64,000 bases of DNA. It comes from a phage. The position numbers and the translations under genes are program-made. Every line of letters starts with the position of its first letter. Within the stretch, counting starts at the first letter, position 1. Positions 43,727 through 56,279 of this stretch are shown in pieces. The notes below the pieces were generated by a model. It was not told where the DNA came from, ran no database searches, and worked only from the letters and a program-made list of their open reading frames with translations. Where the stretch lies: the sequence record PZ402305.1; one strand, 5' to 3'.

Positions 43727-43891
43727 ATGATTTTAAACTTCATCATCAACTTGTGTTTGACATTGGGACTACTTTGTGCAATAGTATCCCCTCTGGTTGG
43801 TGAATATTGTTCTGAACTGGCGATGTTTATAGTTCTTGGTGCGGCTATTGCTAATATGTTTGTCGCTGCGATTTGTATGTTGTGGGAATAG
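43727..43891 (+). CDS. small membrane protein (54 aa, below ORF-track cutoff)
   Basis: RBS taaggagag 6 nt before ATG; two hydrophobic helices (MILNFIINLCLTLGLLCAIVSPLV...FIVLGAAIANMFVAAICMLW). Confidence 0.4.
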   Translation: MILNFIINLCLTLGLLCAIVSPLVGEYCSELAMFIVLGAAIANMFVAAICMLWE

Positions 43892-43902
43892 GAGGGAAGT
43901 TT

Positions 43903-44259
43903 ATGAAAAAATTAATCTTAGCCACATTGCTGGCTACCGTAAGCTTCACCACTTACGCTCAAAAATTTGTAGCAGTTAAAACAGATATTGGTAAAGATGT
44001 TGTGATCACAGGCAACAAGTTTTACTATACACCTGGAAATGGTGTTCTAGAAGAGTGTAAAGATGTTGAGGCATATACAGGAAAAGAAGATAACACGGAA
44101 CGTCCTTTTTATTCGATTATAGCCACTTGCAAAAATGAAATAGTAGCTATTAAACAGTATAAAGATGCCCCTGGAGGAGAATACTTATTAGTCAAGAATA
44201 TTAAGAGTGAAAAAACTGCAAAGTTTACAGTAATTATTTTAAAAGGAGAAACGTTCTAA
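43903..44259 (+). CDS. secreted hypothetical protein
   Basis: ATG at 43903 after RBS taggaggg; signal peptide MKKLILATLLATVSFTTYAQ. Confidence 0.5.
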   Translation: MKKLILATLLATVSFTTYAQKFVAVKTDIGKDVVITGNKFYYTPGNGVLEECKDVEAYTGKEDNTERPFYSIIATCKNEIVAIKQYKDAPGGEYLLVKNIKSEKTAKFTVIILKGETF

Positions 44260-45398
44260 TGAAATACACTATTTTTGGAGATGTGGCTGTTGTAAATAAG
44301 GAATATGGTGTTGAAGCTAATAAACTTCCTGCTGGAGTTTGGGTTGTCAACTGCGATCCGCACGGTAACTACTCTTTAGTGCGTGGCGAAAGTTTCTCTC
44401 TTCCGAACACTCTTTATGGGGAAACTAAAGACCGCGCCGCACATGTTATTAAAACATTTGCTCGTCGTAGTAAAGAAGGTAAAAATACTGGGGTGTTACT
44501 GACAGGCACAAAAGGCAGTGGTAAGACGATGTTAGCTAAACTAATTAGCATGTCCCTAATGTCCACAGAAGGTTTAGGTATTCCAACCATTTTGGTTACA
44601 CAGCCTTACACAGATGCTGGCTTCTTAGAATTTATGAGTAAAATTACAGATCGTGCTGTTGTTTTATTTGACGAATTTGATAAAGTGTACGCTAAGAAAG
44701 AAGATCAGGAAGCACTGTTGACCTTGTTGGATGGAACAGGAAGTGGGAATAAACTTTACATCCTAACTAAAAATAGTGGTTATATCTCGGAATATTTTGT
44801 AAACCGTCCTAGTCGTATCTATTACAGTTTCAATTACGATAAACTGTCTAGTGAAACTATGTTAGATTACTTGGATAAGAACTTGGTAAATAAAAAACAC
44901 GTAGATAACTTCCAACGTTTATGGGATGTTAGCACAGAGTTGTCTTTCGATGTTATTCAAGGTATTGTAGAAGAATTGAATTTCTATCCAAAAATGACTT
45001 TTAAAGAATGTCTTGAAATGATGGGTATTTCTTTAGGCAACGATGCTAAATGGAATGTGGCTTCTATCGTAGCTAATGGCAAAACGCTGAAGGTGAATTG
45101 GATCAATAACTGGCACGACTTCACCCCTACTAAGTTTTTGTCGGGTGCTTGTTCCCTGAACATCTATCTACAAAGTTTGAAAGATGATGAAGTGGAAGCA
45201 ATGGAAACCAACAGTTATGTTATCCTGGATGAAGATGGTGATCCACATATTGATCTATGTGCAACGGCTGATGGTCTAACTTGTGATCTGATTGAAGGTG
45301 GTAAGATTCTGGTTATGAGCACTACACCAGGAAACACTCTGCGAGTGGTGCTGGAGCCTGTAACACAACGTTCCACTACCCTGGGTAGCGTATTCTGA
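44259..45398 (+). CDS. AAA-family ATPase
   Basis: Walker A GTKGSGKT and Walker B VVLFDEFD. Confidence 0.6.
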   Translation: MKYTIFGDVAVVNKEYGVEANKLPAGVWVVNCDPHGNYSLVRGESFSLPNTLYGETKDRAAHVIKTFARRSKEGKNTGVLLTGTKGSGKTMLAKLISMSLMSTEGLGIPTILVTQPYTDAGFLEFMSKITDRAVVLFDEFDKVYAKKEDQEALLTLLDGTGSGNKLYILTKNSGYISEYFVNRPSRIYYSFNYDKLSSETMLDYLDKNLVNKKHVDNFQRLWDVSTELSFDVIQGIVEELNFYPKMTFKECLEMMGISLGNDAKWNVASIVANGKTLKVNWINNWHDFTPTKFLSGACSLNIYLQSLKDDEVEAMETNSYVILDEDGDPHIDLCATADGLTCDLIEGGKILVMSTTPGNTLRVVLEPVTQRSTTLGSVF

Positions 45399-45414
45399 TA
45401 CAGTACAAATAGCT

Positions 45415-45438
45415 AAACCCGCTTCGGCGGGTTTTGTT
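45415..45438 (+). terminator. rho-independent terminator
   Basis: aaacccgcUUCGgcgggtttt stem-loop with T-run after ATPase gene. Confidence 0.7.
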
Positions 45439-45467
45439 ATATTGATTTCAGTTTAACAGGGAGATAA

Positions 45468-46466
45468 TTGTTAGATATGCCAGTAAAGAAGAGTATTGAA
45501 CAATATATTGAAGAGTGTCAACCTATTGCTGCTGCTAAAGGGATTGAGATTATTGGAATTGTTGAGCCGTTTACAGGACAACACACGAAAATGATCAATC
45601 GTTGTCAGTATGCTCATGAATGGAACACTACAACATTTAAAAACTTTAAAACTGGTCGTGCTGGTTGTCCTGTCTGTGCAATTGGGAAAGGATTTGGGAA
45701 AGGAGGTAAGACAGACGATCAGCACATAAAAGATTTCATTAACACAGGAAAGTTTAAACCTGGTACCATTTTCACCAATACAGGCAAACGTAAAGGGAGT
45801 CATATTCTCTGGATGGTTGAATGTCCTGTTTGTTCTCATGATGAATACGTACAAGCAGGAGTGTGTGATGGTAAATTTTACATTGCAGGGAACGATCTTA
45901 AAAAAGGGATTATCCCTTGTCGTTGTACTAGAGTTTACCGTTATACAAAAGATCAGATCACTTACAAGGTGAGAAAAGGTTTAGAAAGTAAAGGATATAT
46001 CTGGATAGAGTGGATTAGTAAACCTTCCTCAACAGGAGAGTTTAAATATGGATGTAAGGATCACGGGGAGCAAATAGGGAATGCTGACCACTTATTACAT
46101 AAGGGGCGTGGTTGTCCGAAGTGTAAAGGGCATACACAACAACAGGCATACATCAACTATATCTACGATGAACAAAATCTTCTCTGTGCTTTGAAGTTTG
46201 GTATTGCCAATAGTAGTGATCGCCGTATCAAAGAACAAAATAGTCATAATGTGTTTACTATGAAACAGAGCCAAGTGTGGCACTTCCCTACTGTGAAGCA
46301 ATGCAAAGATGCAGAAAAGCGTTGTAAGCGTGTCCTTCACACGGAAGCAGTGAGCAAATATTCTATGCCAGATGGCTACACAGAAACAGTAGAGTTATCT
46401 TGCATGGCCTCAATACAAAACATTTATAAACTTTATGGTGGAACATTACAGGAGGAAACATGTTAG
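45468..46466 (+). CDS. Cys-rich (multi zinc-ribbon) hypothetical protein
   Basis: Repeated CxxC pairs (CPVCA, CPVCS, CPKCKGH); start either TTG 45468 or ATG 45477. Confidence 0.5.
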   Translation: MLDMPVKKSIEQYIEECQPIAAAKGIEIIGIVEPFTGQHTKMINRCQYAHEWNTTTFKNFKTGRAGCPVCAIGKGFGKGGKTDDQHIKDFINTGKFKPGTIFTNTGKRKGSHILWMVECPVCSHDEYVQAGVCDGKFYIAGNDLKKGIIPCRCTRVYRYTKDQITYKVRKGLESKGYIWIEWISKPSSTGEFKYGCKDHGEQIGNADHLLHKGRGCPKCKGHTQQQAYINYIYDEQNLLCALKFGIANSSDRRIKEQNSHNVFTMKQSQVWHFPTVKQCKDAEKRCKRVLHTEAVSKYSMPDGYTETVELSCMASIQNIYKLYGGTLQEETC

Positions 46467-46825
46467 TTGACGTTCAAATTATGCGCAACGAAAGAATGGA
46501 CTTCTTTGAAGCAGTAGAGAAACATCTGATCAGATGGGACTATGAATTTGTTCCTGCTGGATGTGGACCAGTAGAGCATTTAGCGGAAGACGACGATGTA
46601 TACATGATCATTCGTCAAGTGTACCAGACAGACCAGTGTGAAGAAACTCCCGAACTAATTTTGTTTGAGTGCAAAGATCTTGCAAAATATTTTGACTATG
46701 GCGGAAAAGAGGGTCATAATCTCTCCAGATACAATAAACGCCTACTTATCTTAGACTACATGCGGAACAACAAACACAAACTAATCGACGCAGACGCAGT
46801 TTATGGCTACTGGTGGATGGATTAA
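46460..46825 (+). CDS. hypothetical protein
   Basis: 121 aa ORF. Confidence 0.45.
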   Translation: MLVDVQIMRNERMDFFEAVEKHLIRWDYEFVPAGCGPVEHLAEDDDVYMIIRQVYQTDQCEETPELILFECKDLAKYFDYGGKEGHNLSRYNKRLLILDYMRNNKHKLIDADAVYGYWWMD

Positions 46826-46838
46826 CAAAGGAGAAACT

Positions 46839-47018
46839 ATGGCACGTTTAGCAGATCATGAAATCTTTAAACCTATTCTGAACCACTATGATGAACTTAA
46901 AGCAGTGTTGGATTGTTATAAAGAGGATGAAGAACGCTTGGAAGTCAATCTTAAGATAGTTCTGATGAAAGCTTTTCAAGACGGGCAAGCTAAAGTCTTA
47001 GAAGGTATGAAAAAATGA
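46839..47018 (+). CDS. hypothetical protein
   Basis: ATG at 46839 after RBS aaaggagaa. Confidence 0.4.
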   Translation: MARLADHEIFKPILNHYDELKAVLDCYKEDEERLEVNLKIVLMKAFQDGQAKVLEGMKK

Positions 47019-47557
47019 GAATAACTGACGAATATGTATTCTTCTTTTCACATAAAGATGTTTTTAGTAATTGGTATATTGCACCCTTTACAGAAACCGA
47101 ACCAGGTTACAATCAGACATTTAATTGTGTCGAACAATACATGATGTGGCGTAAAGCTTTGCTTTTTAATGACCACAACACTGCACAGGCTATTCTGACT
47201 CATAGTTTGATACGGAAAGATGAGAAGATCCAAGCTTATTACAAACGTATGGGTAGGGCAGTGTCGGATTTTGATAACAACGTATGGGAAGAGAACCGTG
47301 AGCGTATTGTTATGCGAGGTTTATGCTTGAAATATGTACAGAATCCAGATTTGTATGCAGACTTACACCTTTACCAATACAAAACGTTTGTTGAAGCAAG
47401 CCCCTACGATAAGGTTTACGGAATTGGAATGGGGATGTATGAACCAGGGGTGCTAAACCCTGCCACCTGGAAAGGGCAGAATCTTTTAGGCAAATATCAT
47501 AACAAACTGATCGAAATACTTTTCCCAGACAAAATACCGCAAAGACGATATTTGTGA
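47015..47557 (+). CDS. NADAR-family protein (YbiA-like)
   Basis: FFFSHKDVFSNWY...FNCVEQYMMWRKA and C-terminal EASPYDKVYGIGMG align with E. coli YbiA pattern (FYS...FSNF...EHYFQAQKF ... E.T.ND.YWGDG). Confidence 0.65.
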   Translation: MRITDEYVFFFSHKDVFSNWYIAPFTETEPGYNQTFNCVEQYMMWRKALLFNDHNTAQAILTHSLIRKDEKIQAYYKRMGRAVSDFDNNVWEENRERIVMRGLCLKYVQNPDLYADLHLYQYKTFVEASPYDKVYGIGMGMYEPGVLNPATWKGQNLLGKYHNKLIEILFPDKIPQRRYL

Positions 47558-47613
47558 TATTTTAACTTTTTTCATTTTTAGAACAAAGGTGTCACTTTGT
47601 AGCACAGAAATAA

Positions 47614-47652
47614 GGCTCCTACAACACTGTAGAGAGCCTATTATTTTGTCCT
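47614..47652 (+). terminator. imperfect hairpin with T-rich tail after NADAR gene
   Basis: ggctcctacaacactgtagagagcc followed by tattattttgtc. Confidence 0.4.
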
Positions 47653-47800
47653 ATACAAACACTTATCTTTTTCAGTTTGCATCATTAGGATTCGATCTAG
47701 GTGGGTTCCTGAAGGTCTGCCAATAAGATTAAAGGTTATCTCAAATTACCCCTACTTGTTATCTCAAAAATTCCTCAAATTATTTAAACTTTTTAAGAAT

Positions 47801-47986
47801 TTACAAAAGTGAAAGTTGAAAACCAAAATTTAAAGTTTAGGAAAATTATCTTAAAATGTTAGATACAAAACAAAACTCAAAAGTCAAGGAAAATTTTAAA
47901 AATTTTGCGCGCCCACAGTATTTAAAGTTTTTTTGCTTTTACAAAAATGAAAGTACAAAAGCAAAATTTAAAGTTTACAAAAATTT
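47801..47986. repeat. two ~47 bp direct repeats (iteron-like) in AT-rich non-coding region
   Basis: ttacaaaagtgaaagttgaaaaccaaaatttaaagtttaggaaaatt (47801-47847) vs ttttacaaaaatgaaagtacaaaagcaaaatttaaagtttacaaaaattt (47939-47986). Confidence 0.6.
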
Positions 47987-48024
47987 ATGCAGATGGGAAT
48001 GAGAAGAGTTCTCATATGGAAATG

Positions 48025-48046
48025 CAAATGATAATGATTCGCATTT
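48025..48046. promoter_or_regulatory. Fur-box-like near-palindrome A
   Basis: caAATGATAATGATTCGCATTt; resembles GATAATGATAATCATTATC. Confidence 0.35.
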
Positions 48047-48083
48047 AGGTTTATAAATGAGATTGATTCTTATTCGATAAGGT

Positions 48084-48104
48084 AAATGATAATCATTCTC
48101 ATTT
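48084..48104. promoter_or_regulatory. Fur-box-like near-palindrome B
   Basis: AAATGATAATCATTCTCATTT; one mismatch to core TGATAATCATTATC; 21-bp quasi-palindrome. Confidence 0.4.
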
Positions 48105-48362
48105 AGAGAATGACGCGCAGGGGCGGTGTTTGTCTCGCGTTCCCGTGTCCCCTCGCCATGTAATAAGAATAACAGATCCAGCCAGGAAAGCAAGCGATTA
48201 TTTCATCTTTACATTTCTTTACAAATATATAGCGCCCAGCCTACCGGCGATCAACCTTCCAACCAGTGCCCCTGGTATGTTAGCCCCGCCTTTACGCCGT
48301 GGGGTGGCGCTTCCTCTTCTGTATGTAAAACAGTATAAGCCCGATCCCTGGGCTTGTCAAGA

Positions 48363-48629
48363 TTATTTTTTGTTTTCTTGCCAGGATAGGACACCTAACC
48401 AAAAATACATATCGCCCCGCGCCCCTGGCGGGATCTTGCTTTCCCCGCCGCCACTGCAAGCCCATAGATAACCATTTGCGAACGTATCAAAATGATCTAT
48501 CTCTTCCACCTTATGATCGCCCAGGTTGAGAACGGTTTCAACCTTTAAGCCCGTTGCGCTTGCTACCTGGTGCACCGTGCCGCCTTGCCAGCCCAATGAG
48601 TGCATAAGGTGTAATGTAGTAGTTGTCAT
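48363..48629 (-). CDS. hypothetical protein in GC-rich island
   Basis: 88 aa ORF with RBS-like aaagggcg upstream; distinct GC-rich codon usage; followed on minus strand by TTGACA-17-TATACT promoter at ~48318-48346. Confidence 0.3.
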   Translation of the reverse strand: MTTTTLHLMHSLGWQGGTVHQVASATGLKVETVLNLGDHKVEEIDHFDTFANGYLWACSGGGESKIPPGARGDMYFWLGVLSWQENKK

Positions 48630-48737
48630 GGTATCGCCCTTTCTTTGTTGTGCGCCCTGGTTGGCGCGGTAGAAAGATGATAGCCCTTTCCTTTATATAT
48701 AGCAAGCAAAAAGAAAATAAAAAGATTGAAAAAGTGG

Positions 48738-48797
48738 TTGACGTTCGCCAGGTGGCGGCATAATATTTACCACGTAGGGCGGCAATGGTGCCGCTCA
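48738..48797 (+). promoter_or_regulatory. early promoter P1 + 5' stem-loop
   Basis: TTGACG-17-TAATAT-ttac-CACGTAGGGCGGCAATGGTGCCGCTCA; stem GCGGCA/TGCCGC. Confidence 0.7.
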
Positions 48798-48815
48798 CTA
48801 TTTGGAGTTAAGATC

Positions 48816-49013
48816 ATGGCAACATTGCACATTGTGGCGAAAGCTGGACAAATCAACGTAATAGTAAACGGTTTTACTGAGTTCAGTCATCCCCAGGATG
48901 ATCATGAAACGGTTTTATCTTTCATTGATTCACTGTTAGAAATGGGAGTAATTACAGAAGATCAGCATACTGCAAAATGCAAGCGCGTTAAGCAGATTGC
49001 AGGAATAGAATAA
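48816..49013 (+). CDS. early small protein (65 aa)
   Basis: ORF track start 48726 lies upstream of promoter P1; ATG at 48816 follows RBS ggag. Confidence 0.55.
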   Translation: MATLHIVAKAGQINVIVNGFTEFSHPQDDHETVLSFIDSLLEMGVITEDQHTAKCKRVKQIAGIE

Positions 49014-49018
49014 AAGTC

Positions 49019-49076: not shown

Positions 49077-49097
49077 TAACAGAAGAGAGAAATCATC

Positions 49098-49705: not shown

Positions 49706-50263
49706 ATGGGCCGCGAATATGTGATCCAGTCTTGGGTAAAACATGAAGCAGATGATCCGCGCATCATTCCCGATCATCTTATCGATGAATCCACGGGATA
49801 TAGCGGTGAGCAAATAGGTAGCAGATTAGCACGTAGTAACGGCAACGTAAAAGCGCGTTATGTGCGCCCTGGCTGGCTGGCAAATGGTAACGCTGATTTA
49901 TCCAGTGCGGAAGATGCGAGCGACGGCGCGAAAGATAATCCTTTGTACAAAGTTGATCCGGCTTTTCGTGTCCTGGATGAATACCCCAGCAAGATAGCGG
50001 CGCTCGATCAGGCCCTGGAAAGTAAGCGCATCACCTGGACCGCTTACAACATGGCAAAAAACGTACTTGATGGTAAATTGATTCAAGCTGAAAGAAAATT
50101 AGCCAAAATTGCAGCCATAGCCCAGGAGGAAGACGAGGAGACAACGGAAGAGGAAGAGTACGAAGAGATCCCGCCGTTGTTGTGCGTTGATGCTTTTCCT
50201 GATTATCAGCCGACAGAGGAAGAAAAAAGGATCGCACTAGAAAACTTTGAAAATAGTCTTTGA
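49706..50263 (+). CDS. early acidic protein (185 aa)
   Basis: ATG at 49706 after RBS aaaaggtgg (ORF track GTG 49697); C-terminal third strongly acidic (EEDEETTEEEEYEE). Confidence 0.55.
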   Translation: MGREYVIQSWVKHEADDPRIIPDHLIDESTGYSGEQIGSRLARSNGNVKARYVRPGWLANGNADLSSAEDASDGAKDNPLYKVDPAFRVLDEYPSKIAALDQALESKRITWTAYNMAKNVLDGKLIQAERKLAKIAAIAQEEDEETTEEEEYEEIPPLLCVDAFPDYQPTEEEKRIALENFENSL

Positions 50264-50319
50264 CATATCGCCGCCACTGGCATAATATTTACCACGTAGG
50301 GCGGCAATGGTGCCGCTCA
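50259..50319 (+). promoter_or_regulatory. early promoter P4 + 5' stem-loop
   Basis: TTGACA overlapping preceding stop; CATAAT -10; stem-loop identical to P1. Confidence 0.7.
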
Positions 50320-50345
50320 TAGTGAAATTATGCAAGAGGCTTACA

Positions 50346-50441
50346 ATGATTAATAAAGAAAATAGCTTGACGGTTGGAACGATTAACGCTATCATTTTCG
50401 CCGTTCCATTTTGGGTTGTATTAGCGGCTATTATTTTCTAA
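50346..50441 (+). CDS. early hydrophobic micro-protein (31 aa)
   Basis: Not in ORF track (<60 aa); ATG after agagg; MINKENSLTVGTINAIIFAVPFWVVLAAIIF is a single TM helix; sits between P4 and P5. Confidence 0.35.
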   Translation: MINKENSLTVGTINAIIFAVPFWVVLAAIIF

Positions 50442-50896: not shown

Positions 50897-50902
50897 AAAC
50901 GG

Positions 50903-50959: not shown

Positions 50960-50979
50960 AATAATAAAAGGTTAACATC

Positions 50980-51159: not shown

Positions 51160-51178
51160 AAGTTTTAGTCTTATACTA

Positions 51179-51230
51179 TTGACAATGAGTGATAGTATAA
51201 GCATAATAACTTTTATCGGGAATACTTCCC
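51179..51230 (+). promoter_or_regulatory. early promoter P7 + 5' stem-loop
   Basis: TTGACA-...-CATAAT-...-CGGGAATACTTCCC. Confidence 0.6.
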
Positions 51231-51256
51231 ACTAACCAAAAAGAGAGAGTGACACC

Positions 51257-51622
51257 ATGGCTATTAATATCAATGTTTCCGTTTATGCTACCCTGGCTGA
51301 CACGGCTAAAATTGAATTATCCAGCATTGAGGCGGTGCATATTAGCGCCCGTCGCTGGTTTCAACAGTCCTACGGTAACACATATTTTTCTTTAATAGTT
51401 GACGTTGAGATCGGCGGTAAACTGATCGAGGTGGTTAACGTTCCGTTTCAATATGGCTATGGTGATCATTTTGATACCGTCGCCCTGGAAGAATTTAGCA
51501 AGGTTATCAACCTTGAGGGCAAGGAATTTTCACGCGGCGCGTATCTTTCCCGTTTTTGCCGTGACAATGGGATCACTGTATACAGTCATGCAAGCGATGT
51601 AAAACGTAAAAAAGATTTATAA
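51257..51622 (+). CDS. early small protein (121 aa)
   Basis: RBS aagagagag; follows P7. Confidence 0.6.
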   Translation: MAININVSVYATLADTAKIELSSIEAVHISARRWFQQSYGNTYFSLIVDVEIGGKLIEVVNVPFQYGYGDHFDTVALEEFSKVINLEGKEFSRGAYLSRFCRDNGITVYSHASDVKRKKDL

Positions 51623-51627
51623 AAGTA

Positions 51628-51690
51628 TTGACAGCACGAATAAAAAGAGTAAACTGTATTACATAGAGAGCGGGAACACTTCCCGCCTCA
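51628..51690 (+). promoter_or_regulatory. early promoter P8 + 5' stem-loop
   Basis: TTGACA-16-TAAACT-gtatt-ACATAGAGAGCGGGAACACTTCCCGCCTCA. Confidence 0.7.
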
Positions 51691-51710
51691 CTGAAAAAGA
51701 GAGAAAAATC

Positions 51711-51950
51711 ATGGCTAAATCTAAAATGTACAACGGTCACAAAAACAAAACTCATTGGAATGTAAGCCTTTGGATTAATAACGATGAATCATTATATCGG
51801 TTGGCGAAAGAATTTATCGCCGCTAATACTAATCGTAATGATGCTGCGCGGGATATGATGCTTTTTCTGGAACAAACTGGACAAGATAAAACGCCAGACG
51901 GTTTCAAATATAGCACTACTGCGATCCGCGCCGCGATGGTTGGAATGTAA
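51711..51950 (+). CDS. early small protein (79 aa)
   Basis: RBS aaagagag; follows P8. Confidence 0.6.
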   Translation: MAKSKMYNGHKNKTHWNVSLWINNDESLYRLAKEFIAANTNRNDAARDMMLFLEQTGQDKTPDGFKYSTTAIRAAMVGM

Positions 51951-51959
51951 TAAAAACAG

Positions 51960-52019
51960 TTGACAACGTTTAAAATTAGTGTAAGATGTATCACATAGGG
52001 CGGGAAGTGGTTTCCCGCC
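51960..52019 (+). promoter_or_regulatory. early promoter P9 + 5' stem-loop
   Basis: TTGACA-16-TAAGAT-gtat-CACATAGGGCGGGAAGTGGTTTCCCGCC. Confidence 0.7.
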
Positions 52020-52041
52020 AACAACAGAGAGATTAAAGATT

Positions 52042-52269
52042 ATGGCTATCAATATTGTTCGCGTATCCGGCACCGTTGGCACTTCCCAGGTTATTGCAGT
52101 TGTAACAAACAAAAAGATTAATGATGTATGTGAGATCTTGAATAAGTGGGCTATTGCTAATTTTGGGGAATATGCAAGCGTCGAGTACATCGAATCCTAC
52201 CAGGTGCCAACCATCAGCCTAACCGATCTCAACGTTGATCGCCTGTTATGCCTGGATGAATTAATCTGA
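52042..52269 (+). CDS. early small protein (75 aa)
   Basis: RBS agagag; follows P9. Confidence 0.6.
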   Translation: MAINIVRVSGTVGTSQVIAVVTNKKINDVCEILNKWAIANFGEYASVEYIESYQVPTISLTDLNVDRLLCLDELI

Positions 52270-52278
52270 AAAAGATTG

Positions 52279-52337
52279 TTGACACGGGAAAGAAAAAGAG
52301 TAAACTATATTACGTAGGGCGGCAATGGTGCCGCTCA
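52279..52337 (+). promoter_or_regulatory. early promoter P10 + 5' stem-loop
   Basis: TTGACA-16-TAAACT-atat-TACGTAGGGCGGCAATGGTGCCGCTCA. Confidence 0.7.
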
Positions 52338-52359
52338 CAACAGAAGAGAGATTATCACG

Positions 52360-52572
52360 ATGGCTAATATCCGCACACTGTTAAAAAATGCAAAACAAGT
52401 TTTATTTTCTGATCACAATCATTTTAATAAAGATATTACAGGCGTGAAGAATATCAAAGATGTAAAAAGTGTTATGGGTATATATTGCAATGTTAAACGT
52501 GTTGGAACGTTCGGTGACAAGGTATTGTATCAATCAGGTGATTACAATTTTACTTTGACGATTATTTCATAA
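52360..52572 (+). CDS. early small protein (70 aa)
   Basis: RBS agaagagag; follows P10. Confidence 0.6.
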   Translation: MANIRTLLKNAKQVLFSDHNHFNKDITGVKNIKDVKSVMGIYCNVKRVGTFGDKVLYQSGDYNFTLTIIS

Positions 52573-52577
52573 AACGC

Positions 52578-52638
52578 TTGCAATACTGCAAAAATAAAGT
52601 AAACTGTATTACATCAAGGCGGGGAATGGTCCACCGCC
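52578..52638 (+). promoter_or_regulatory. early promoter P11 + 5' stem-loop
   Basis: TTGCAA-...-TAAACT-gtatt-ACATCAAGGCGGGGAATGGTCCACCGCC. Confidence 0.65.
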
Positions 52639-52662
52639 TAACAAAGAGAAGAGGAAAACATC

Positions 52663-52830
52663 ATGATTACTTTTACTACCCGTGAAGCCGCTCGCAACGT
52701 TGCACGTAAAGTTAACGCCGCCAACCTGGGTGCTACGCTTAAAGCCCCTGTAAAAGATGAATCAGGCAAATGGATCTTCCCTGGTCTGCGTCATGCTGAC
52801 AAGTTAGGTACTTTAAGCCTTAAAAAATAA
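52663..52830 (+). CDS. early small basic protein (55 aa)
   Basis: Not in ORF track; RBS agaggaaaa; follows P11. Confidence 0.45.
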   Translation: MITFTTREAARNVARKVNAANLGATLKAPVKDESGKWIFPGLRHADKLGTLSLKK

Positions 52831-52833
52831 TCG

Positions 52834-52871
52834 TTGACTTTTCGTTATAGCGCCTTATAATGGGCGCTATA
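52834..52871 (+). promoter_or_regulatory. early promoter P12 with -10 embedded in palindrome
   Basis: TTGACT then TATAGCGCC-TTATAAT-GGGCGCTATA perfect inverted repeat enclosing the TATAAT hexamer. Confidence 0.55.
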
Positions 52872-52908
52872 GAGAAGAGAAACCAATCACCAGAAAGAGA
52901 GAAAGAAA

Positions 52909-53127
52909 ATGGCAATCCGTAAAATTAAAGTTGTTTGCATTGAATCAACTGGTGGCGCGTTTGTAGTTGGTCAGAAGTATAATGCGGTTTTAATGGGCGT
53001 GGATTGGAAGGTTAAAGGTCTTGACGGTTACGAATACGGCACTACTCGCGGCTTGCGTGGTCGAATCGGATACGTGAGCTTTGACAACAAAGAAAAATTT
53101 GTTTTCGATACTGTTATGAGTAAATAG
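52909..53127 (+). CDS. early small protein (72 aa)
   Basis: RBS agagagaaag; follows P12. Confidence 0.6.
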   Translation: MAIRKIKVVCIESTGGAFVVGQKYNAVLMGVDWKVKGLDGYEYGTTRGLRGRIGYVSFDNKEKFVFDTVMSK

Positions 53128-53200
53128 CACGAATTGCTAAAAACTAATCTGCGAATTGCTGTAATATCAACTAATCGAAACACATAAAGAGAAAAACATC

Positions 53201-53422
53201 ATGATCACTTTCGCTATTGTCACCGTTGTCGCTGGTCAAGTTTACGTAAATGAGACATTTACTACAGAAGACAAAGCAGCAGGAGATATAACCGCCGTTT
53301 ACAACGAGTGCAAGGCAGTAGAAAGGATGTTAGCGCCTTGTATGCTAATGAGTGAACGCCAGGACGGGATAACAGTGTTTAGCAACATTGAAACAGGGTA
53401 CCAAATGGTAGTAACAAAATAA
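53201..53422 (+). CDS. early small protein (73 aa)
   Basis: RBS aaagagaaa; upstream promoter less clear (TTGCTA / TGTAATAT), no stem-loop. Confidence 0.55.
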   Translation: MITFAIVTVVAGQVYVNETFTTEDKAAGDITAVYNECKAVERMLAPCMLMSERQDGITVFSNIETGYQMVVTK

Positions 53423-53425
53423 AAC

Positions 53426-53483
53426 TTGACACAGATTTAATTTTCAGTAAACTGTTACACATAGGGCGGGAATAGTTCCCGCT
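53426..53483 (+). promoter_or_regulatory. early promoter P13 + 5' stem-loop
   Basis: TTGACA-...-TAAACT-gtta-CACATAGGGCGGGAATAGTTCCCGCT. Confidence 0.7.
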
Positions 53484-53500
53484 AAAAAGAGAGAAAGACC

Positions 53501-53854
53501 ATGAAAGCACAAAATGCAATTAAAGAGTACATCCTTGCCGCTATCGATTTTAATGATTATGGTATTACAACCGAAAAAGAGAAGATCGCGGAATTGATGC
53601 GCCGTTTTAATTCCGAGTACTGGTACCCTGATAATCAATCACGTTTTAATTATAGTATTGTTAAAGCACTTGCATCATGGTTACAAGGTTTGCCATCAGA
53701 CATTAATATCGCTTTCGAATATTGGGAAATTGATCGTTTGTTAACATCCTGGGGATACATTAAAGAGAATAGCAGCGATGATAAAATCCAACGAGAAAGG
53801 GAAAATTATTGGCTTTATATTGCAGGCGTGATCCTTGCTTGCTCTTATGAATGA
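53501..53854 (+). CDS. early small protein (117 aa)
   Basis: RBS aagagagaaag; follows P13. Confidence 0.6.
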   Translation: MKAQNAIKEYILAAIDFNDYGITTEKEKIAELMRRFNSEYWYPDNQSRFNYSIVKALASWLQGLPSDINIAFEYWEIDRLLTSWGYIKENSSDDKIQRERENYWLYIAGVILACSYE

Positions 53855-53860
53855 TAAACC

Positions 53861-53917
53861 TTGACAATTTTACAAAACAGCTTAAATTAATAATATAGCG
53901 GCAATGGTGCCGCTCAT
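53861..53917 (+). promoter_or_regulatory. early promoter P14 + 5' stem-loop
   Basis: TTGACA-16-TTAAAT-taatat-AGCGGCAATGGTGCCGCTCA. Confidence 0.65.
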
Positions 53918-53933
53918 ATAAAGAGGAAACAAA

Positions 53934-54080
53934 ATGAATACATCTAATCGCGCAGAAAAAATTCAATCTCCCAAGATCCGCAAGGCCTGGAACGAGGAAG
54001 TGATCCGCAAAGGCGACAAGCGTAATAAAACAAAGCGCGGGAAGAGTGACAAATATAATTGGATGGATTTAGAGGATTAA
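53934..54080 (+). CDS. early small basic protein (48 aa)
   Basis: Not in ORF track; RBS aagaggaaa; Lys/Arg-rich; followed by strong terminator. Confidence 0.4.
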   Translation: MNTSNRAEKIQSPKIRKAWNEEVIRKGDKRNKTKRGKSDKYNWMDLED

Positions 54081-54086
54081 CATAAC

Positions 54087-54114
54087 AAGGGCGCACCAAG
54101 CGCCCTTTCTTTTT
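54087..54114 (+). terminator. rho-independent terminator (copy 1)
   Basis: aaGGGCGCaccaaGCGCCCtttcttttt; identical core to terminator at 59172-59200. Confidence 0.8.
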
Positions 54115-54135
54115 ACATGTAGAGGATAAACAAAA

Positions 54136-54321
54136 ATGACTTTAAACGAGCTTAAAACAGCCTACAACGCAACGTTAAAAATAGCCGTGCGTTACCGTGA
54201 CGAATACGGTTTTATTGCGCAGGGCGTGATCCTGGGCTTTTCTGACGATGGTTTGATTTATGTTGATGCACATCACAACAAGGTTAAACCGGAAAACGTT
54301 ATCAGTATAAAATATCTTTAA
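54136..54321 (+). CDS. early small protein (61 aa)
   Basis: RBS agaggataaa. Confidence 0.5.
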   Translation: MTLNELKTAYNATLKIAVRYRDEYGFIAQGVILGFSDDGLIYVDAHHNKVKPENVISIKYL

Positions 54322-54327
54322 AAGTGG

Positions 54328-54388
54328 TTGACACCATAACCGGACCTGTTAAACTGTATTACATCAGGCGGGGGAATAGTTCCCCACC
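54328..54388 (+). promoter_or_regulatory. early promoter P15 + 5' stem-loop
   Basis: TTGACA-...-TAAACT-gtatt-ACATCAGGCGGGGGAATAGTTCCCCACC. Confidence 0.65.
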
Positions 54389-54407
54389 ATACAAAAAGGT
54401 AAATATT

Positions 54408-54614
54408 ATGATCACCGCAAAACAAGAAAAAATCATTATCGACGTTGCAGCCGTTGCCGCTATTGCTATTATTGGATCTTATTATGATACCCGTTTCCCG
54501 TCGGCTATGCATGAGGTCGCCGCCGTTGCATCAGTTGGCGTACTGTTTTACGTTGGTAAACGCTATTTATCACCAATGATTAACAAGCTGACACCGTGGA
54601 AAAATAAAGGTTGA
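54408..54614 (+). CDS. early small membrane protein (68 aa)
   Basis: ORF track start 54324 is upstream of promoter; ATG at 54408 after aaaaagg; hydrophobic helix VAAVAAIAIIGSYY. Confidence 0.5.
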   Translation: MITAKQEKIIIDVAAVAAIAIIGSYYDTRFPSAMHEVAAVASVGVLFYVGKRYLSPMINKLTPWKNKG

Positions 54615-54668
54615 TCCTGTTTTATATTGTGTTATAGTTATCGTGTAGGGCGGCAATGGTGCCGCGCC
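54611..54668 (+). promoter_or_regulatory. early promoter P16 + 5' stem-loop
   Basis: TTGATC-...-TATAGT-tatc-GTGTAGGGCGGCAATGGTGCCGCGCC. Confidence 0.6.
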
Positions 54669-54685
54669 CCTTTGAGGATGCAATC

Positions 54686-54970
54686 ATGAGTAAAGCTAAC
54701 ACCGTGCTAATGTTTTCCCTGATTAATGATCCCGCTTACTTGTCCAACATGACGCAGGAGGGTAACACATTAACGGCAACATTCACCAATAAGCTTGACC
54801 GAGTGATCATCATCTCACTGAAAACAGTTAGTAAAGGCTTTTACTCGTTAGCTTATCATTGGATCACTGATACCGATGAGACAAGCCAGGACTATAGCGC
54901 CCCTTTCCCTGAATCAATGGCACGGGAGATCATCGCCGCCGTTGTAAATGATGGTTTGTTTACTGCATAA
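54686..54970 (+). CDS. early small protein (94 aa)
   Basis: ORF track start 54656 overlaps stem-loop; ATG at 54686 after gaggatg. Confidence 0.5.
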   Translation: MSKANTVLMFSLINDPAYLSNMTQEGNTLTATFTNKLDRVIIISLKTVSKGFYSLAYHWITDTDETSQDYSAPFPESMAREIIAAVVNDGLFTA

Positions 54971-54985
54971 AAATTTAGAAAAGGC

Positions 54986-55042
54986 TTGCAATAATTTTGA
55001 GATAGTGTATATTTAATTCATAGGGCGGCGGGAATAGTTCCC
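54986..55042 (+). promoter_or_regulatory. early promoter P17 + 5' stem-loop
   Basis: TTGCAA-...-TATATT-taat-TCATAGGGCGGCGGGAATAGTTCCC. Confidence 0.6.
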
Positions 55043-55065
55043 AAAGCAAACGAGAGGATTACACG

Positions 55066-55185
55066 ATGAGCAAGTACACAGTAGAATACACGGTAGAGAA
55101 TCCGGCAGTATCCGAAGGTAAAAAGATGACATTTGCCATCAGTATAATCGCTTTCGTTGTCACTATCTTATCAATCATCTTATAA
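55066..55185 (+). CDS. early hydrophobic micro-protein (39 aa)
   Basis: Not in ORF track; RBS gagagg; C-terminal TM helix FAISIIAFVVTILSIIL. Confidence 0.35.
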   Translation: MSKYTVEYTVENPAVSEGKKMTFAISIIAFVVTILSIIL

Positions 55186-55195
55186 GGTGCACACC

Positions 55196-55357
55196 ATGAA
55201 AATAACAGACATTATCAAAGAGATCGCCCTTGCCGCTGGCGTTGAAGTCGAGGAAGTGATCGCGCTCAATCTTACAGAAAACGATCTGCGCAACTATGAA
55301 GCGGAAAGCGTGAAAGCAAGCGGCGCGGTCCTGGTATATGATCCGGCTAACAAGTAA
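55196..55357 (+). CDS. early small protein (53 aa)
   Basis: ORF track start 55157; ATG at 55196 after taaggtg. Confidence 0.45.
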   Translation: MKITDIIKEIALAAGVEVEEVIALNLTENDLRNYEAESVKASGAVLVYDPANK

Positions 55358-55366
55358 GGGGATAAC

Positions 55367-55477
55367 ATGAATCCGAAAGATATGCAAGCATGGAAAGGGT
55401 ACGACGATCTAAGCGCCTTGCGCAATAAGTCAAGCCGTAACCTTAGACGGTTGGAAGCAAAGAAAAAGAAAAAATAG
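55367..55477 (+). CDS. early small basic protein (36 aa)
   Basis: Not in ORF track; RBS aagggga; ends in KKKKK. Confidence 0.3.
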   Translation: MNPKDMQAWKGYDDLSALRNKSSRNLRRLEAKKKKK

Positions 55478-55478
55478 T

Positions 55479-55537
55479 TTGACAAGTCCGCGTAGTCTGA
55501 TAATATGTATCTTGTAGGGCGGCAATGGTGCCGCTCA
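55479..55537 (+). promoter_or_regulatory. early promoter P18 + 5' stem-loop
   Basis: TTGACA-17-TAATAT-gtat-CTTGTAGGGCGGCAATGGTGCCGCTCA. Confidence 0.7.
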
Positions 55538-55555
55538 CAAGAAGAGAGAAAAATC

Positions 55556-55840
55556 ATGAAAATTACAAAAAGCCTAACTAATTATGCAGCACGTCGCGGA
55601 TTATGTTTAACCGTTGAAAACTTAGGGAAAGAAGACTTTTTGTGTTTTTGGGAGCTTGAAAATGATTGCGAGTGGATGTTTTCTTATTCTATCTGCGAAG
55701 ATCAAAACGGTTGTTTGTTAACCTGGCGCGGTAATATCTATTTACCGGAAGAAATCAAAGAGGAACTACCAGGCACGATCATGACTGAGAAACAGCTTAA
55801 GGAAGTGATCAATTTTGTAGGGCAAAACATTAAAAAATAA
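55556..55840 (+). CDS. early small protein (94 aa)
   Basis: ORF track start 55505 is inside promoter; ATG at 55556 after agaagagagaaaa. Confidence 0.55.
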   Translation: MKITKSLTNYAARRGLCLTVENLGKEDFLCFWELENDCEWMFSYSICEDQNGCLLTWRGNIYLPEEIKEELPGTIMTEKQLKEVINFVGQNIKK

Positions 55841-55841
55841 T

Positions 55842-55907
55842 TTGACAGTAGGCAAACAACGTAGTAAAGTTTATTACATAGAGCGGCGGAATGGTCCACC
55901 GCTCACA
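55842..55907 (+). promoter_or_regulatory. early promoter P19 + 5' stem-loop
   Basis: TTGACA-...-TAAAGT-ttatt-ACATAGAGCGGCGGAATGGTCCACCGCTCA. Confidence 0.65.
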
Positions 55908-55925
55908 ACAGAAGAGAAACAAATC

Positions 55926-56096
55926 ATGATCCCGACTATGTTTTATGTATCGCGCAAAGGTCACAATATTTTTTGGTCTGAAGATTTAAATGAAGCTATG
56001 ACGTTTGCCCGTAATCGTGTTGCTATCGGTGGCGTTAACATCACCGTAACCGATGAAAATGGCATTGAATACTATAACGGCGACGATGAAGAATAA
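55926..56096 (+). CDS. early small protein (56 aa)
   Basis: ORF track start 55842 overlaps promoter; ATG at 55926 after agaagagaaac. Confidence 0.5.
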   Translation: MIPTMFYVSRKGHNIFWSEDLNEAMTFARNRVAIGGVNITVTDENGIEYYNGDDEE

Positions 56097-56101
56097 TTAA
56101 T

Positions 56102-56128
56102 GAGGCGGGGGGAGTATTCCCCGCCGTC
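56102..56128 (+). promoter_or_regulatory. promoter-less GC stem-loop (terminator/processing-site candidate)
   Basis: GAGGCGGGGGGAGTATTCCCCGCCGTC hairpin of the same type as the 5' stem-loops but without upstream TTGACA. Confidence 0.4.
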
Positions 56129-56174
56129 AATATGGCGGGGCAATAAGGCAACGCCCATTAATGAGGGTAAAATC

Positions 56175-56279
56175 ATGTTAGAGAAAATTTTCACGGTTGC
56201 AGTGGTTGGCCTGGCGTTATCGGTTGGAGTGGTTGCAACTATGGCTAACATGATCCTATCTTCCCACGGTATCGGTTAA
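56175..56279 (+). CDS. early hydrophobic micro-protein (34 aa)
   Basis: Not in ORF track; RBS gagggtaaa; MLEKIFTVAVVGLALSVGVVATMANMIL is a TM helix. Confidence 0.35.
   Translation: MLEKIFTVAVVGLALSVGVVATMANMILSSHGIG

What the first reader, a model, noticed from the sequence alone, without database searches (positions are those of the whole stretch)
43727..56279. Unannotated hydrophobic micro-proteins below the 60 aa cutoff
At least four short ORFs with good RBS and a single predicted transmembrane helix are missed by the ORF track: 43727-43891 (54 aa), 50346-50441 (31 aa), 55066-55185 (39 aa) and 56175-56279 (34 aa). Three of them sit directly behind early promoter units. Small phage membrane peptides often inhibit host division, transporters or other phage entry.
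Basis: seen in the sequence. Interest (0 to 1): 0.45.

Follow-up and report, generated by a model that had tools for sequence, protein, structure and literature searches.

The report
Known small phage membrane-peptide genes
The four short hydrophobic reading frames are real, conserved early genes of a phAPEC8-like E. coli phage. All four are already deposited as annotated "hypothetical" or "membrane" proteins in related genomes, three of them also as catalogued families, so this is ordinary phage dark matter, not a discovery.

Summary
The window is a Phapecoctavirus (phAPEC8-like myovirus; 97.8% identical to phage tuntematon). All four micro-ORFs exist exactly as stated, each with an ATG and a Shine-Dalgarno motif. 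Random sequence of the same composition gives 0.09 such ORFs on average; four are observed. All four stay open, keep their start and SD, and stay hydrophobic in diverged relatives. In diverged pairs synonymous change (pS 0.6-0.8) far exceeds non-synonymous change (pN 0.16-0.43). They are very probably genuine genes for membrane-inserted peptides.

They are not new. ORF1, ORF3 and ORF4 match full-length PHROG families, and their exact sequences are in NCBI. ORF2 is annotated in RefSeq tuntematon at 97% identity. "Unannotated" mainly reflects the first stage's 60-aa cutoff, although ORF4 and ORF2 are skipped in many public records.

Corrections to the finding:
- ORF1 has two hydrophobic segments, not one.
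- Only ORF2 and ORF3 sit behind a recognisable promoter cassette here. ORF4 keeps just the hairpin and SD part, though 9 of 10 relatives have the full cassette.
- A fifth such ORF lies at 42763-42939.

Function is unknown; there are no Pfam, NCBIfam or PDB relatives. The most likely role is accessory early inner-membrane peptides that modulate the host envelope. ORF4 is the most notable, because its 14 C-terminal residues are invariant across two phage subfamilies.

The parts
43727..43891 (+). ORF1, a 54-aa micro-protein with two hydrophobic segments (helical-hairpin type). It lies inside an operon and has no promoter of its own.
   Evidence: The ORF and its AAGGAG SD are shown. It matches phrog_27459 full length, E 1.4e-38. 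tblastn finds it in 71 phage records. The exact peptide is phAPEC8_00250 and others. Diverged homologs at 40-47% identity keep the ATG, the SD, a length of 53-54 aa and both hydrophobic segments; pS is 0.67-0.79 against pN 0.31-0.36.
50346..50441 (+). ORF2, a 31-aa single-pass micro-protein: a short polar N-terminus (MINKENS) followed by a Pro-containing hydrophobic helix.
   Evidence: It has no PHROG family but is annotated as tuntematon gp044 and in KKP 3954, ukendt and PaulScherrer. It occurs in 111 phage records. The motif SLTVGTINAI..VPFW is conserved, and ATG plus SD are kept even where the upstream DNA is unrelated. Against phiWec186, pS is 0.60 and pN 0.16.
50260..50345 (+). Promoter, 5'-hairpin and SD cassette that drives ORF2.
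   Evidence: TTGACA-17-TAATAT. The hairpin GGGCGGCAATGGTGCCGCTC folds at -14.7 kcal/mol. It belongs to repeat families D3 and D5.
55066..55185 (+). ORF3, a 39-aa tail-anchored-type micro-protein: a 20-aa polar N-terminus (KYTVEYTVENPAVSEGKK) followed by a C-terminal hydrophobic helix.
   Evidence: It matches phrog_10979 'membrane protein' full length, E 5.9e-23. The exact peptide is phAPEC8_004 and others. It occurs in 76 phage records, including the unrelated 48-kb Salmonella phage PMBT28 at 51% identity. The length is exactly 39 codons in all 11 homologs read. Residues V6, Y8, N12, A14 and G18 are invariant. In diverged pairs pS is 0.72-0.80 and pN 0.26-0.43.
54986..55065 (+). Promoter cassette that drives ORF3. 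Its -35 is non-consensus and its hairpin is partly degenerate.
   Evidence: TTGCAA-16-TATATT. The hairpin folds at only -7.8 kcal/mol. It belongs to repeat family D13.
56175..56279 (+). ORF4, a 34-aa micro-protein: an N-terminal hydrophobic helix followed by an invariant C-terminal half (ATMANMILSSHGIG).
   Evidence: It matches phrog_14631 full length, E 8.5e-22. It occurs in 155 phage records at 82-100% identity, including Vequintavirus FV3 and LTH01. Variable sites by codon position are 7/2/10, and Gly34 uses all four GGN codons. The coding body has no excess RNA structure, z = +1.2. In Stephanstirmvirinae relatives and FV3 it lies 10-13 nt upstream of the phrog_5988 gene; in LTH01 a shorter, unclassified gene follows at that distance.
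56097..56174 (+). Structured leader upstream of ORF4. It is a chimeric remnant of two cassette hairpins without a good -35/-10.
   Evidence: MFE is -33.1 kcal/mol with z = -4.4. Relatives carry a normal TTGACA-16-TAGAAT cassette at this position, and homology to them starts near 56137.
42763..42939 (+). A fifth hydrophobic micro-ORF (58 aa, two hydrophobic segments).
   Evidence: GGAG SD and maximum hydropathy 2.45. It matches phrog_22639 full length, E 1.3e-41.

Best explanation
The four ORFs, plus a fifth at 42763, are genuine protein-coding micro-genes of the early region of a phAPEC8-like myovirus. The region is transcribed by host sigma-70 RNA polymerase.

How they are expressed:
- ORF2 and ORF3 are monocistronic units. 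Each is driven by one copy of a repeated ~75-nt cassette made of -35 TTGACA, a 16-18 nt spacer, a -10 box, a 5'-leader hairpin and an SD.
- ORF4 is the first gene of a conserved early gene module and has lost the promoter half of its cassette in this genome.
- ORF1 sits inside an operon with another two-segment micro-protein, a Sec-signal-bearing periplasmic protein and an AAA ATPase.

Each product is little more than one hydrophobic helix (ORF2-4) or two (ORF1), with a short conserved polar tail. Each therefore very likely inserts into the host inner membrane.

The most likely mode of action is inferred, not shown. They would act as accessory early peptides that bind and modulate host or incoming-phage envelope components. 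Possible roles are superinfection exclusion, or control of membrane transport, division or protease complexes. This is how T4 Imm, T4 Ac, PhiNM1 Gp11 and bacterial peptides such as AcrZ, MgtS and KdpF work. Their patchy distribution among relatives and their cassette-flanked positions mark them as dispensable, shufflable accessory genes.

What is shown: the ORFs exist, are conserved, are under purifying selection, stay hydrophobic and have promoter context. What is inferred: translation, membrane insertion, early timing and any target.
For: The phage is identified. The ORFs and their SD motifs are shown.

Excess over chance: 4 observed against a null mean of 0.09, with 0 on the opposite strand.

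Conservation:
- tblastn finds the frames in 71, 111, 76 and 155 phage records.
- Frames, ATG, SD and length are kept in relatives down to 36-50% identity, even where the upstream DNA is unrelated.
- In diverged pairs pS is 0.6-0.8 and pN 0.16-0.43. Pooled variable sites by codon position are 78/55/109, chi-square p = 1e-4.
- Hydropathy stays at or above about 2.0 in every homolog.
- ORF4's Gly34 uses four synonymous codons while its C-terminal residues are invariant.

Against an RNA explanation: the ORF bodies have no excess RNA structure and there is no Rfam hit.

Prior cataloguing: full-length PHROG families, NCBI entries and annotation in relatives.

Promoter cassettes are shown.

Accessory, shuffled character: ORF2 has different neighbours in Justusliebigvirus, nepoznato and this window, and tuntematon has two extra genes before ORF4.

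Analogues from the literature: T4 Imm binds the incoming tape-measure protein (bioRxiv 10.64898/2026.03.06.709160). PhiNM1 Gp11 is a small early membrane protein that blocks division (PMC11237401). The rV5 genome paper already reported many small early ORFs and 15 TM proteins (PMC3606486).
Against: - No expression data exist for these phages: the literature searches found no Ribo-seq, MS or RNA-seq.
- No sequence link to any functionally characterised family was found. Pfam, NCBIfam and PDB are all negative.
- The neighbours are all of unknown function.
- ORF2 shows dN/dS near or above 1 in some close comparisons, although each rests on 6 or fewer substitutions.
- ORF4 divergence is low overall (pS <=0.29), so the power to separate peptide-level from nucleotide-level constraint is limited.
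- TM prediction here is by hydropathy only.
Confidence: 0.8

Rival explanations
1. The peptides are non-specific membrane-damaging toxins, like type I toxins or holins, that depolarise or permeabilise the host. They would not be specific modulators of a partner protein.
For: Their size and composition (31-54 aa, essentially one hydrophobic helix) resemble Hok, TisB, Ibs and Ldr-type toxins (own knowledge). A sigma-70-like match on the minus strand (50458->50430) points antisense into ORF2.
Against: - There is no hit to any toxin or holin family in Pfam or NCBIfam at E<=1.
- Conserved polar motifs outside the helix suggest specific recognition rather than bulk hydrophobicity. Examples are ORF3 V6/Y8/N12/A14/G18 and ORF4 ATMANMILSSHGIG.
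- The antisense promoter match is at chance level: 61 sites found against 39.7 expected in the region.
- The genes are in the early region, not the lysis region.
Confidence: 0.12
2. ORF4 matters mainly as a translated leader. Ribosomes that finish ORF4 would reinitiate on the downstream phrog_5988 gene (translational coupling), or its conservation reflects an RNA or DNA element. The peptide itself would be incidental.
For: - The ORF4 stop (56277-56279) overlaps the SD (AAGGTG) of the next gene, which starts 10 nt later.
- This spacing of 10-13 nt is kept in every relative read.
- Codons 15-24 show almost no nucleotide change.
- The leader upstream is strongly structured, z = -4.4.
Against: - The amino-acid sequence is constrained: variable sites by codon position are 7/2/10, and pN is 0.00-0.09 against pS 0.04-0.29.
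- Gly34 uses all four codons with no amino-acid change in the last 14 residues.
- All replacements are conservative hydrophobic swaps within the helix.
- The coding body has no excess structure, z = +1.2.
- The structured leader is specific to this genome; relatives have a plain cassette.
Confidence: 0.06
3. The ORFs are chance reading frames in AT-rich intergenic DNA and are not expressed.
For: They are very short, and there is no direct expression evidence. ORF2 has no PHROG family.
Against: - Observed 4 against a null of 0.09.
- The frames are open with ATG and SD in relatives whose synonymous sites are saturated.
- Each fills an otherwise empty gap between a promoter cassette and the next cassette or gene, on the coding strand.
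Confidence: 0.02

Closest known systems
PHROG families phrog_27459, phrog_10979 ('membrane protein', category moron/host takeover) and phrog_14631, with the corresponding GenBank/RefSeq proteins of phAPEC8, tuntematon, FV3/rV5 and others
   Same: ORF1, ORF3 and ORF4 align end to end with the family profiles (E 1e-38, 6e-23, 9e-22). Identical peptides are already deposited. ORF2 corresponds to RefSeq YP_009986420 (tuntematon gp044) at 97% identity.
   Different: Nothing of substance differs. These are the same genes. None has an assigned function.
T4 superinfection-exclusion and early membrane proteins (Imm, 83 aa; Ac, 51 aa; Sp)
   Same: They are small inner-membrane or periplasmic proteins expressed early from host-type promoters of a lytic myovirus. 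They are dispensable for growth and act on envelope processes. Imm binds the incoming tape-measure protein. Ac is thought to interact with AcrAB-TolC (PMC13250531).
   Different: There is no sequence similarity: the Pfam scan gave no hit for any of the four. The peptides here are shorter. The function is untested.
Bacterial small inner-membrane regulatory peptides (AcrZ, MgtS, KdpF, CydX, MgrB, PmrR)
   Same: They are single-pass peptides of 29-49 aa. A short conserved tail and helix face bind a larger membrane complex (own knowledge). The size and architecture match ORF2-4.
   Different: No homology was found in Pfam or NCBIfam. The peptides here are phage-encoded and their partner is unknown.
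T4-type PeSL regulatory cassettes (Arbiol 2010; Comeau 2014)
   Same: They are repeated composite units (AT-rich tract, sigma-70-like -35/-10, SD, start codon) lying between small accessory genes in hyperplastic regions. They are proposed to mediate gene shuffling (PMC4122927). About 21 comparable units occur here.
   Different: In PeSLs the stem-loop lies just upstream of the promoter and acts as a terminator. Here the hairpin lies downstream of the -10, in the 5' leader of the transcript. The sequences are unrelated.

Membership tests
PHROG phrog_27459 / phrog_10979 / phrog_14631 (ORF1 / ORF3 / ORF4) | A significant full-length match to the family profile | tested here: met
   E = 1.4e-38 (1-54 of 54), 5.9e-23 (1-39 of 39) and 8.5e-22 (1-34 of 34). 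ORF2 has no PHROG family, but it is annotated as a CDS in several relatives.
Genuine protein-coding gene (general criteria) | The reading frame, start codon and SD are conserved in diverged genomes | tested here: met
   All four are kept in 6-11 loci each, down to 36-54% amino-acid identity.
Genuine protein-coding gene (general criteria) | Purifying selection (pN < pS, with an excess of third-position changes) | tested here: met
   In diverged pairs pS is 0.6-0.8 and pN 0.16-0.43. Pooled codon-position counts are 78/55/109, p = 1e-4. ORF2 close pairs are noisy, with dN/dS of 0.3-1.5 on 6 or fewer changes.
Genuine protein-coding gene (general criteria) | Direct evidence of translation (Ribo-seq or MS) | not testable with these tools
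   No such data were found for Phapecoctavirus or Vequintavirus.
Integral membrane micro-protein | A hydrophobic segment of about 19 residues or more, with Kyte-Doolittle mean >=1.6, conserved in homologs | tested here: met
   The maximum is 2.3-2.7 in the window and at least 1.97 in every homolog. ORF1 has two segments. Membrane localisation itself is not testable here.
T4 Imm superinfection-immunity family | Sequence match to the Pfam Imm family | tested here: not met
   No Pfam hit at E<=1, other than a sub-threshold DUF6358 match for ORF1 (E 0.45, 11 bits against a cutoff of 28).
Type I toxins (Hok/Gef, Ldr, Ibs, TisB, ShoB) and holins | Sequence match to the toxin or holin family models | tested here: not met
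   No Pfam or NCBIfam hit at E<=1.
Type I toxins (Hok/Gef, Ldr, Ibs, TisB, ShoB) and holins | A cognate antisense RNA (toxins) or a position in the lysis cassette (holins) | tested here: inconclusive
   One chance-level antisense promoter match lies next to ORF2. There is no Rfam hit. The genes lie in the early region, not beside a lysin.
Sec signal peptide / lipoprotein precursor (considered for ORF4) | A positively charged n-region, an h-region, small residues at -3/-1, or a lipobox Cys | tested here: inconclusive
   Judged by eye. The n-region MLEK has net charge 0. The h-region is present. T-M-A|N fits the -3/-1 rule. There is no Cys, so it is not a lipoprotein. The hydrophobic stretch continues past the putative cleavage site (NMIL). 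No SignalP-type predictor was available.
T4-type PeSL cassette | A stem-loop immediately upstream of a sigma-70-like early promoter, followed by SD and start | tested here: not met
   The promoter, SD and start are present, but the hairpin lies downstream of the -10 (compared with PMC4122927). The cassettes work alike as repeated regulatory units but are not members.

The most novel reading that the evidence does not exclude
ORF4 may not be a resident membrane anchor. It could be a signal-peptide-like pro-peptide. Its variable N-terminal helix would direct export, and cleavage after A-T-M-A24 would release the invariant C-terminal decapeptide NMILSSHGIG into the periplasm or medium. There the peptide could act as a specific inhibitor or as a phage-phage signal. 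That would be loosely analogous to arbitrium AimP precursors, but in lytic coliphages of two subfamilies.

A milder version has roughly 0.3 probability: ORF4 stays in the membrane, and its invariant tail binds one conserved host inner-membrane machine.
Probability: 0.04. Interest if true: 0.75.

Novelty: already known. Interest (0 to 1): 0.15.

Why it matters
As a discovery it matters little. The genes are already in public databases as hypothetical or membrane proteins, and nothing here assigns a function.

Two practical points remain:
- ORF4 and ORF2 are skipped in a large share of deposited Phapecoctavirus and Justusliebigvirus genomes, including phAPEC8, tuntematon and ukendt for ORF4. Annotation pipelines for these therapeutic-candidate phages under-call real micro-genes.
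- ORF4 is a 34-aa peptide with an invariant 14-residue tail shared by Stephanstirmvirinae and Vequintavirinae. This makes it a cheap, well-defined candidate for anyone screening phage early peptides for host membrane targets.

Tried and rejected
- Pfam, NCBIfam and PDB sequence searches of the micro-proteins found nothing.
- The same collection searched with ORF1 returned only its own cluster.
- An exhaustive phmmer search of ORF3 against 1.84 billion representatives returned three hits: its own cluster, a frameshifted copy, and a spurious 1558-aa repetitive protein with no passing stretch.
- Gene-neighbourhood inference failed. All ten neighbours are PHROG 'unknown function' and Pfam-negative, except the AAA ATPase. 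The conserved 128-aa partner of ORF4 has only close, unnamed relatives.
- The structured-RNA rival was tested with an Rfam scan at E<=0.1 (no hit) and with folding z-scores of the ORF bodies (+1.2, -0.95, +1.1). It was rejected.
- The longer alternative starts were rejected. These are 50307 for ORF2 (44 aa) and 56100 for ORF4 (59 aa). Both ATGs lie inside cassette hairpins, lack an SD, and are not conserved in relatives.
- Literature searches for transcriptomics, proteomics or functional screens in Phapecoctavirus or Vequintavirus gave nothing relevant.
- Structure prediction was not run. A lone helix would add nothing, and alignments containing sequences from outside the window are not accepted by the tool.

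Full report
**Identity of the window.** The region 43500-56500 is 97.8% identical over its full length to Escherichia phage tuntematon (Phapecoctavirus, Stephanstirmvirinae). It matches 275 phage records in all. The finding lies in the + strand block of small genes. GC skew flips at about 42 kb. This block corresponds to the early region of rV5/phAPEC8-like myoviruses. The rV5 genome paper already described that region as '88 mainly small ORFs', with sigma-70-type promoters and 15 predicted TM proteins (PMC3606486).

**Observation.** All four ORFs exist at the stated coordinates with an ATG and a Shine-Dalgarno motif 6-8 nt upstream.
- ORF1: 43727-43891, 54 aa.
- ORF2: 50346-50441, 31 aa.
- ORF3: 55066-55185, 39 aa.
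- ORF4: 56175-56279, 34 aa.

The maximum 19-residue Kyte-Doolittle hydropathy is 2.3-2.7. Under one fixed criterion (ATG ORF of 25-59 aa, SD 5-mer at -5 to -16, hydropathy >=1.6), exactly these four pass on the + strand of 42000-58500. The reverse strand gives 0. In 300 first-order Markov simulations the mean was 0.09 and the maximum 2.

Three corrections apply:
- ORF1 has two hydrophobic segments flanking a conserved SP(L/I)(V/I)GE turn, not a single helix.
- Relaxing the SD to 4 nt reveals a fifth hydrophobic micro-ORF at 42763-42939 (58 aa, two segments, phrog_22639).
- The promoter statement is only partly right, as described next.

**Promoter units.** Between 48738 and 58750 there are about 21 copies of a ~75-nt cassette. 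Each has an AT-rich tract, a -35 TTGACA, a 16-18 nt spacer, a -10 box, about 9 nt, a GC-rich hairpin, an A/G-rich leader with an SD, and a start codon. The hairpin stems differ in sequence between copies, for example GGGCGGCAATGGTGCCGC, GCGGGAATAGTTCCCGC and GGGGCGACAAGCGCCCC. Most copies fold at -12 to -17 kcal/mol; a few are weaker, including ORF3's own cassette. The cassettes are shared with Vequintavirus FV3 and LTH01.

- ORF2 sits directly behind one cassette (50260) and is followed by the next (50452).
- ORF3 sits behind a weaker cassette (54986, TTGCAA, degenerate hairpin).
- ORF1 has no promoter of its own. It lies 9 nt after the preceding gene, in an operon.
- ORF4 in this window is preceded by an extra hairpin (56106-56127) and then only the hairpin and SD half of a cassette. 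The best -35/-10 candidate is poor (TTGAAT-18-AAGAAT at 56065).

In 9 of 10 relatives ORF4 sits behind a complete TTGACA-16-TAGAAT cassette. Homology to the window begins near 56137, so this genome carries a recombination junction there. That junction creates the strongly folding leader (z = -4.4). The fold is therefore a local by-product and not a conserved element.

**Are they genes?** tblastn finds ORF1 in 71, ORF2 in 111, ORF3 in 76 and ORF4 in 155 phage records. I fetched 12 related loci from genomes diverged to varying degrees and located each homolog. In every case the frame is open, starts at an ATG and has an SD. This holds even where the upstream DNA is unrelated, as for ORF2 in alia and phiWec186 and for ORF3 in PMBT28 and alia.
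- Lengths are nearly fixed: ORF3 is 39 codons in all 11 homologs, ORF4 is 34 in all 11, and ORF1 is 53-54. ORF2 varies only at its C-terminus (31-38).
- In diverged pairs synonymous sites are near saturation (pS 0.60-0.83), while pN is 0.16-0.43.
- Pooled variable sites by codon position are 78/55/109 (chi-square p = 1e-4).
- Hydropathy is retained in every homolog (at least 1.97).
- The coding bodies have no excess RNA structure (z = +1.2, -0.95, +1.1), and no Rfam family matches.

I conclude that they are genuine coding genes for membrane-inserted peptides. Translation itself remains inferred.

**Are they new?** They are not.
- ORF1, ORF3 and ORF4 match PHROG v4 families end to end: phrog_27459, phrog_10979 'membrane protein' and phrog_14631.
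- The exact peptides are already in NCBI and UniRef. ORF1 is phAPEC8_00250 and others. ORF3 is phAPEC8_004, labelled 'membrane protein'. ORF4 is Dompiswa phage TSP7_1 gp139 and others.
- ORF2's exact sequence is absent from the collection. A 97%-identical version is RefSeq tuntematon gp044, and it is also annotated in KKP 3954, ukendt and PaulScherrer.
- The ORF4 homolog was annotated in FV3 in 2012 as 'similar to rV5 hypothetical protein'.

'Missed by the ORF track' is therefore a consequence of the first stage's 60-aa cutoff. There is one qualification. In the spread samples of tblastn hits, ORF4 has no feature in 13 of 22 annotated records, including phAPEC8, tuntematon, ukendt and KKP 3954. 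ORF2 has no feature in 9 of 24. Annotators do often skip these two.

**What each peptide looks like.**
- ORF1 is a two-segment hairpin with a conserved turn and a conserved C-terminus, VAA(I/L)CML(W/L/F)(E/D). It lies in an operon with the 58-aa two-segment ORF at 42763. The same operon holds a 118-aa protein with a typical Sec signal peptide (MKKLILATLLATVSFTTYA|QK) and an AAA ATPase.
- ORF2 has a 7-residue polar N-terminus followed by a helix with the conserved motifs SLTVGTINAI and VPFW.
- ORF3 has a 20-residue polar N-terminus in which V6, Y8, N12, A14 and G18 are invariant, then basic residues, then a C-terminal helix. By the positive-inside rule it would be N-in and tail-anchored; this is inference. 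A 51%-identical homolog sits in the unrelated 48-kb Salmonella phage PMBT28.
- ORF4 has an N-terminal helix that tolerates conservative swaps, followed by the invariant ATMANMILSSHGIG. Gly34 uses GGT, GGA, GGC and GGG across relatives. ORF4 lies in the best-conserved early-region block shared with Vequintavirus (87% DNA identity over 56130-56503 against FV3). In Stephanstirmvirinae relatives and FV3 it lies 10-13 nt upstream of the phrog_5988 gene. The phrog_1915 gene completes the module in this window and in most relatives; in FV3 the blast homology stops at 56503, so it was not seen there.

**Function.** Nothing obtainable here assigns one.
- Pfam, NCBIfam and PDB give no hits.
- Exhaustive searches with ORF1 and ORF3 recover only their own clusters.
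- All neighbours are of unknown function.
- No expression or functional study exists for these phages in the searchable literature.

The best-supported mechanism is therefore an analogy. These would be early-expressed, dispensable inner-membrane peptides that bind host or incoming-phage envelope components. T4 Imm does this with the tape-measure protein. T4 Ac is thought to do it with AcrAB-TolC. PhiNM1 Gp11 does it with MurG and DivIC.

Their patchy distribution and cassette-flanked, variable positions fit accessory genes shuffled by recombination between repeated regulatory units. ORF2 has different neighbours in three lineages. This is the idea proposed for T4-type PeSLs. It differs in that the PeSL stem-loop precedes the promoter, while here the hairpin follows the -10.

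**Rivals.** I considered three alternatives:
- Non-specific toxin-like peptides.
- ORF4 as a mere coupling leader for the downstream gene.
- Chance ORFs.

All three are disfavoured for the reasons given in their entries. The most novel reading not excluded is that ORF4 is an exported pro-peptide releasing its invariant C-terminus. The uncharged n-region and the hydrophobic residues after the putative cleavage site argue against it.

**Verdict.** Novelty is 'already known'. Interest is low. ORF4 is the one item worth a wet-lab look.

Noticed in passing
window 48738-58750 (+ strand), e.g. 50452-50533, 55479-55558, 56895-56975: About 21 copies of a ~75-nt regulatory cassette lie here, one in front of almost every small early gene. 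Each has a -35 TTGACA, a 16-18 nt spacer, a -10 box, a GC-rich 5'-leader hairpin, an SD and a start codon. Stem sequences differ between copies, but most copies fold at -12 to -17 kcal/mol. The cassettes are shared with Vequintavirus. The hairpin lies downstream of the -10, unlike T4 PeSLs where it lies upstream. It may stabilise the 5' end of early mRNAs or provide recombination sites.
   Followed up: partly
window 56097-56174: The leader upstream of ORF4 folds unusually strongly (-33.1 kcal/mol, z = -4.4). CCCCGCC can pair with either flanking GGCGGGG. It is a chimeric junction of two cassette hairpins and is specific to this genome; relatives carry a normal promoter cassette there.
   Followed up: yes
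It matches phrog_22639 full length and has no Pfam hit.
   Followed up: partly
window 43903-45398: ORF1 is followed by a 118-aa protein with a typical Sec signal peptide (MKKLILATLLATVSFTTYA|QK; phrog_5474) and then a 379-aa AAA ATPase (PF00004; labelled 'FtsH-like protease' in BASEL phage PaulScherrer). With the two hairpin micro-proteins this makes an operon rich in envelope-directed products.
   Followed up: partly
window ~47560-48720: This is a gene-poor ~1.1-kb stretch with direct repeats: three units at 29-nt spacing (47998-48106) and two 72-nt units (47776 and 47914). It contains a lone minus-strand ORF (48363-48629). Tuntematon marks a repeat_region here, and the rV5 paper notes an ORF-free region in the equivalent place. 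It may be an origin or a regulatory region.
   Followed up: no
window 56175-56888; L007 (FV3) 3911-4284; L008 (LTH01) 3241-4039: ORF4, phrog_5988 (71 aa) and phrog_1915 (128 aa) form an early gene module that recurs in related phages. FV3 shares ORF4 and the phrog_5988 gene at 87% DNA identity (window 56130-56503). LTH01 shares ORF4 and the phrog_1915 gene at 81-86% DNA identity but has a shorter middle gene. Both downstream proteins have only close, unnamed relatives.
   Followed up: partly
window 52360-52572: This 70-aa ORF is labelled 'phosphoribosylpyrophosphate synthetase' in tuntematon, alia, ukendt and VEcB. It has no Pfam hit at E<=0.1 and is far too short for that enzyme, so the label looks like a propagated mis-annotation.
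   Followed up: partly
window 50430-50458 (- strand): A sigma-70-like match (TTGTCA-17-AATAAT) points antisense into ORF2. It overlaps the next + strand promoter and is within chance expectation for this AT-rich region: 61 sites found against 39.7 expected.
   Followed up: no
window 45415-45434 and 54087-54107: Two symmetric GC-rich hairpins with T-runs on both strands are bidirectional terminator-like sites. They are the only strong terminator candidates in the early block and probably delimit transcription units.
   Followed up: no
window 54408-54614: A 68-aa protein with two hydrophobic segments (phrog_30003) is another small early membrane protein, just above the 60-aa cutoff.
   Followed up: no
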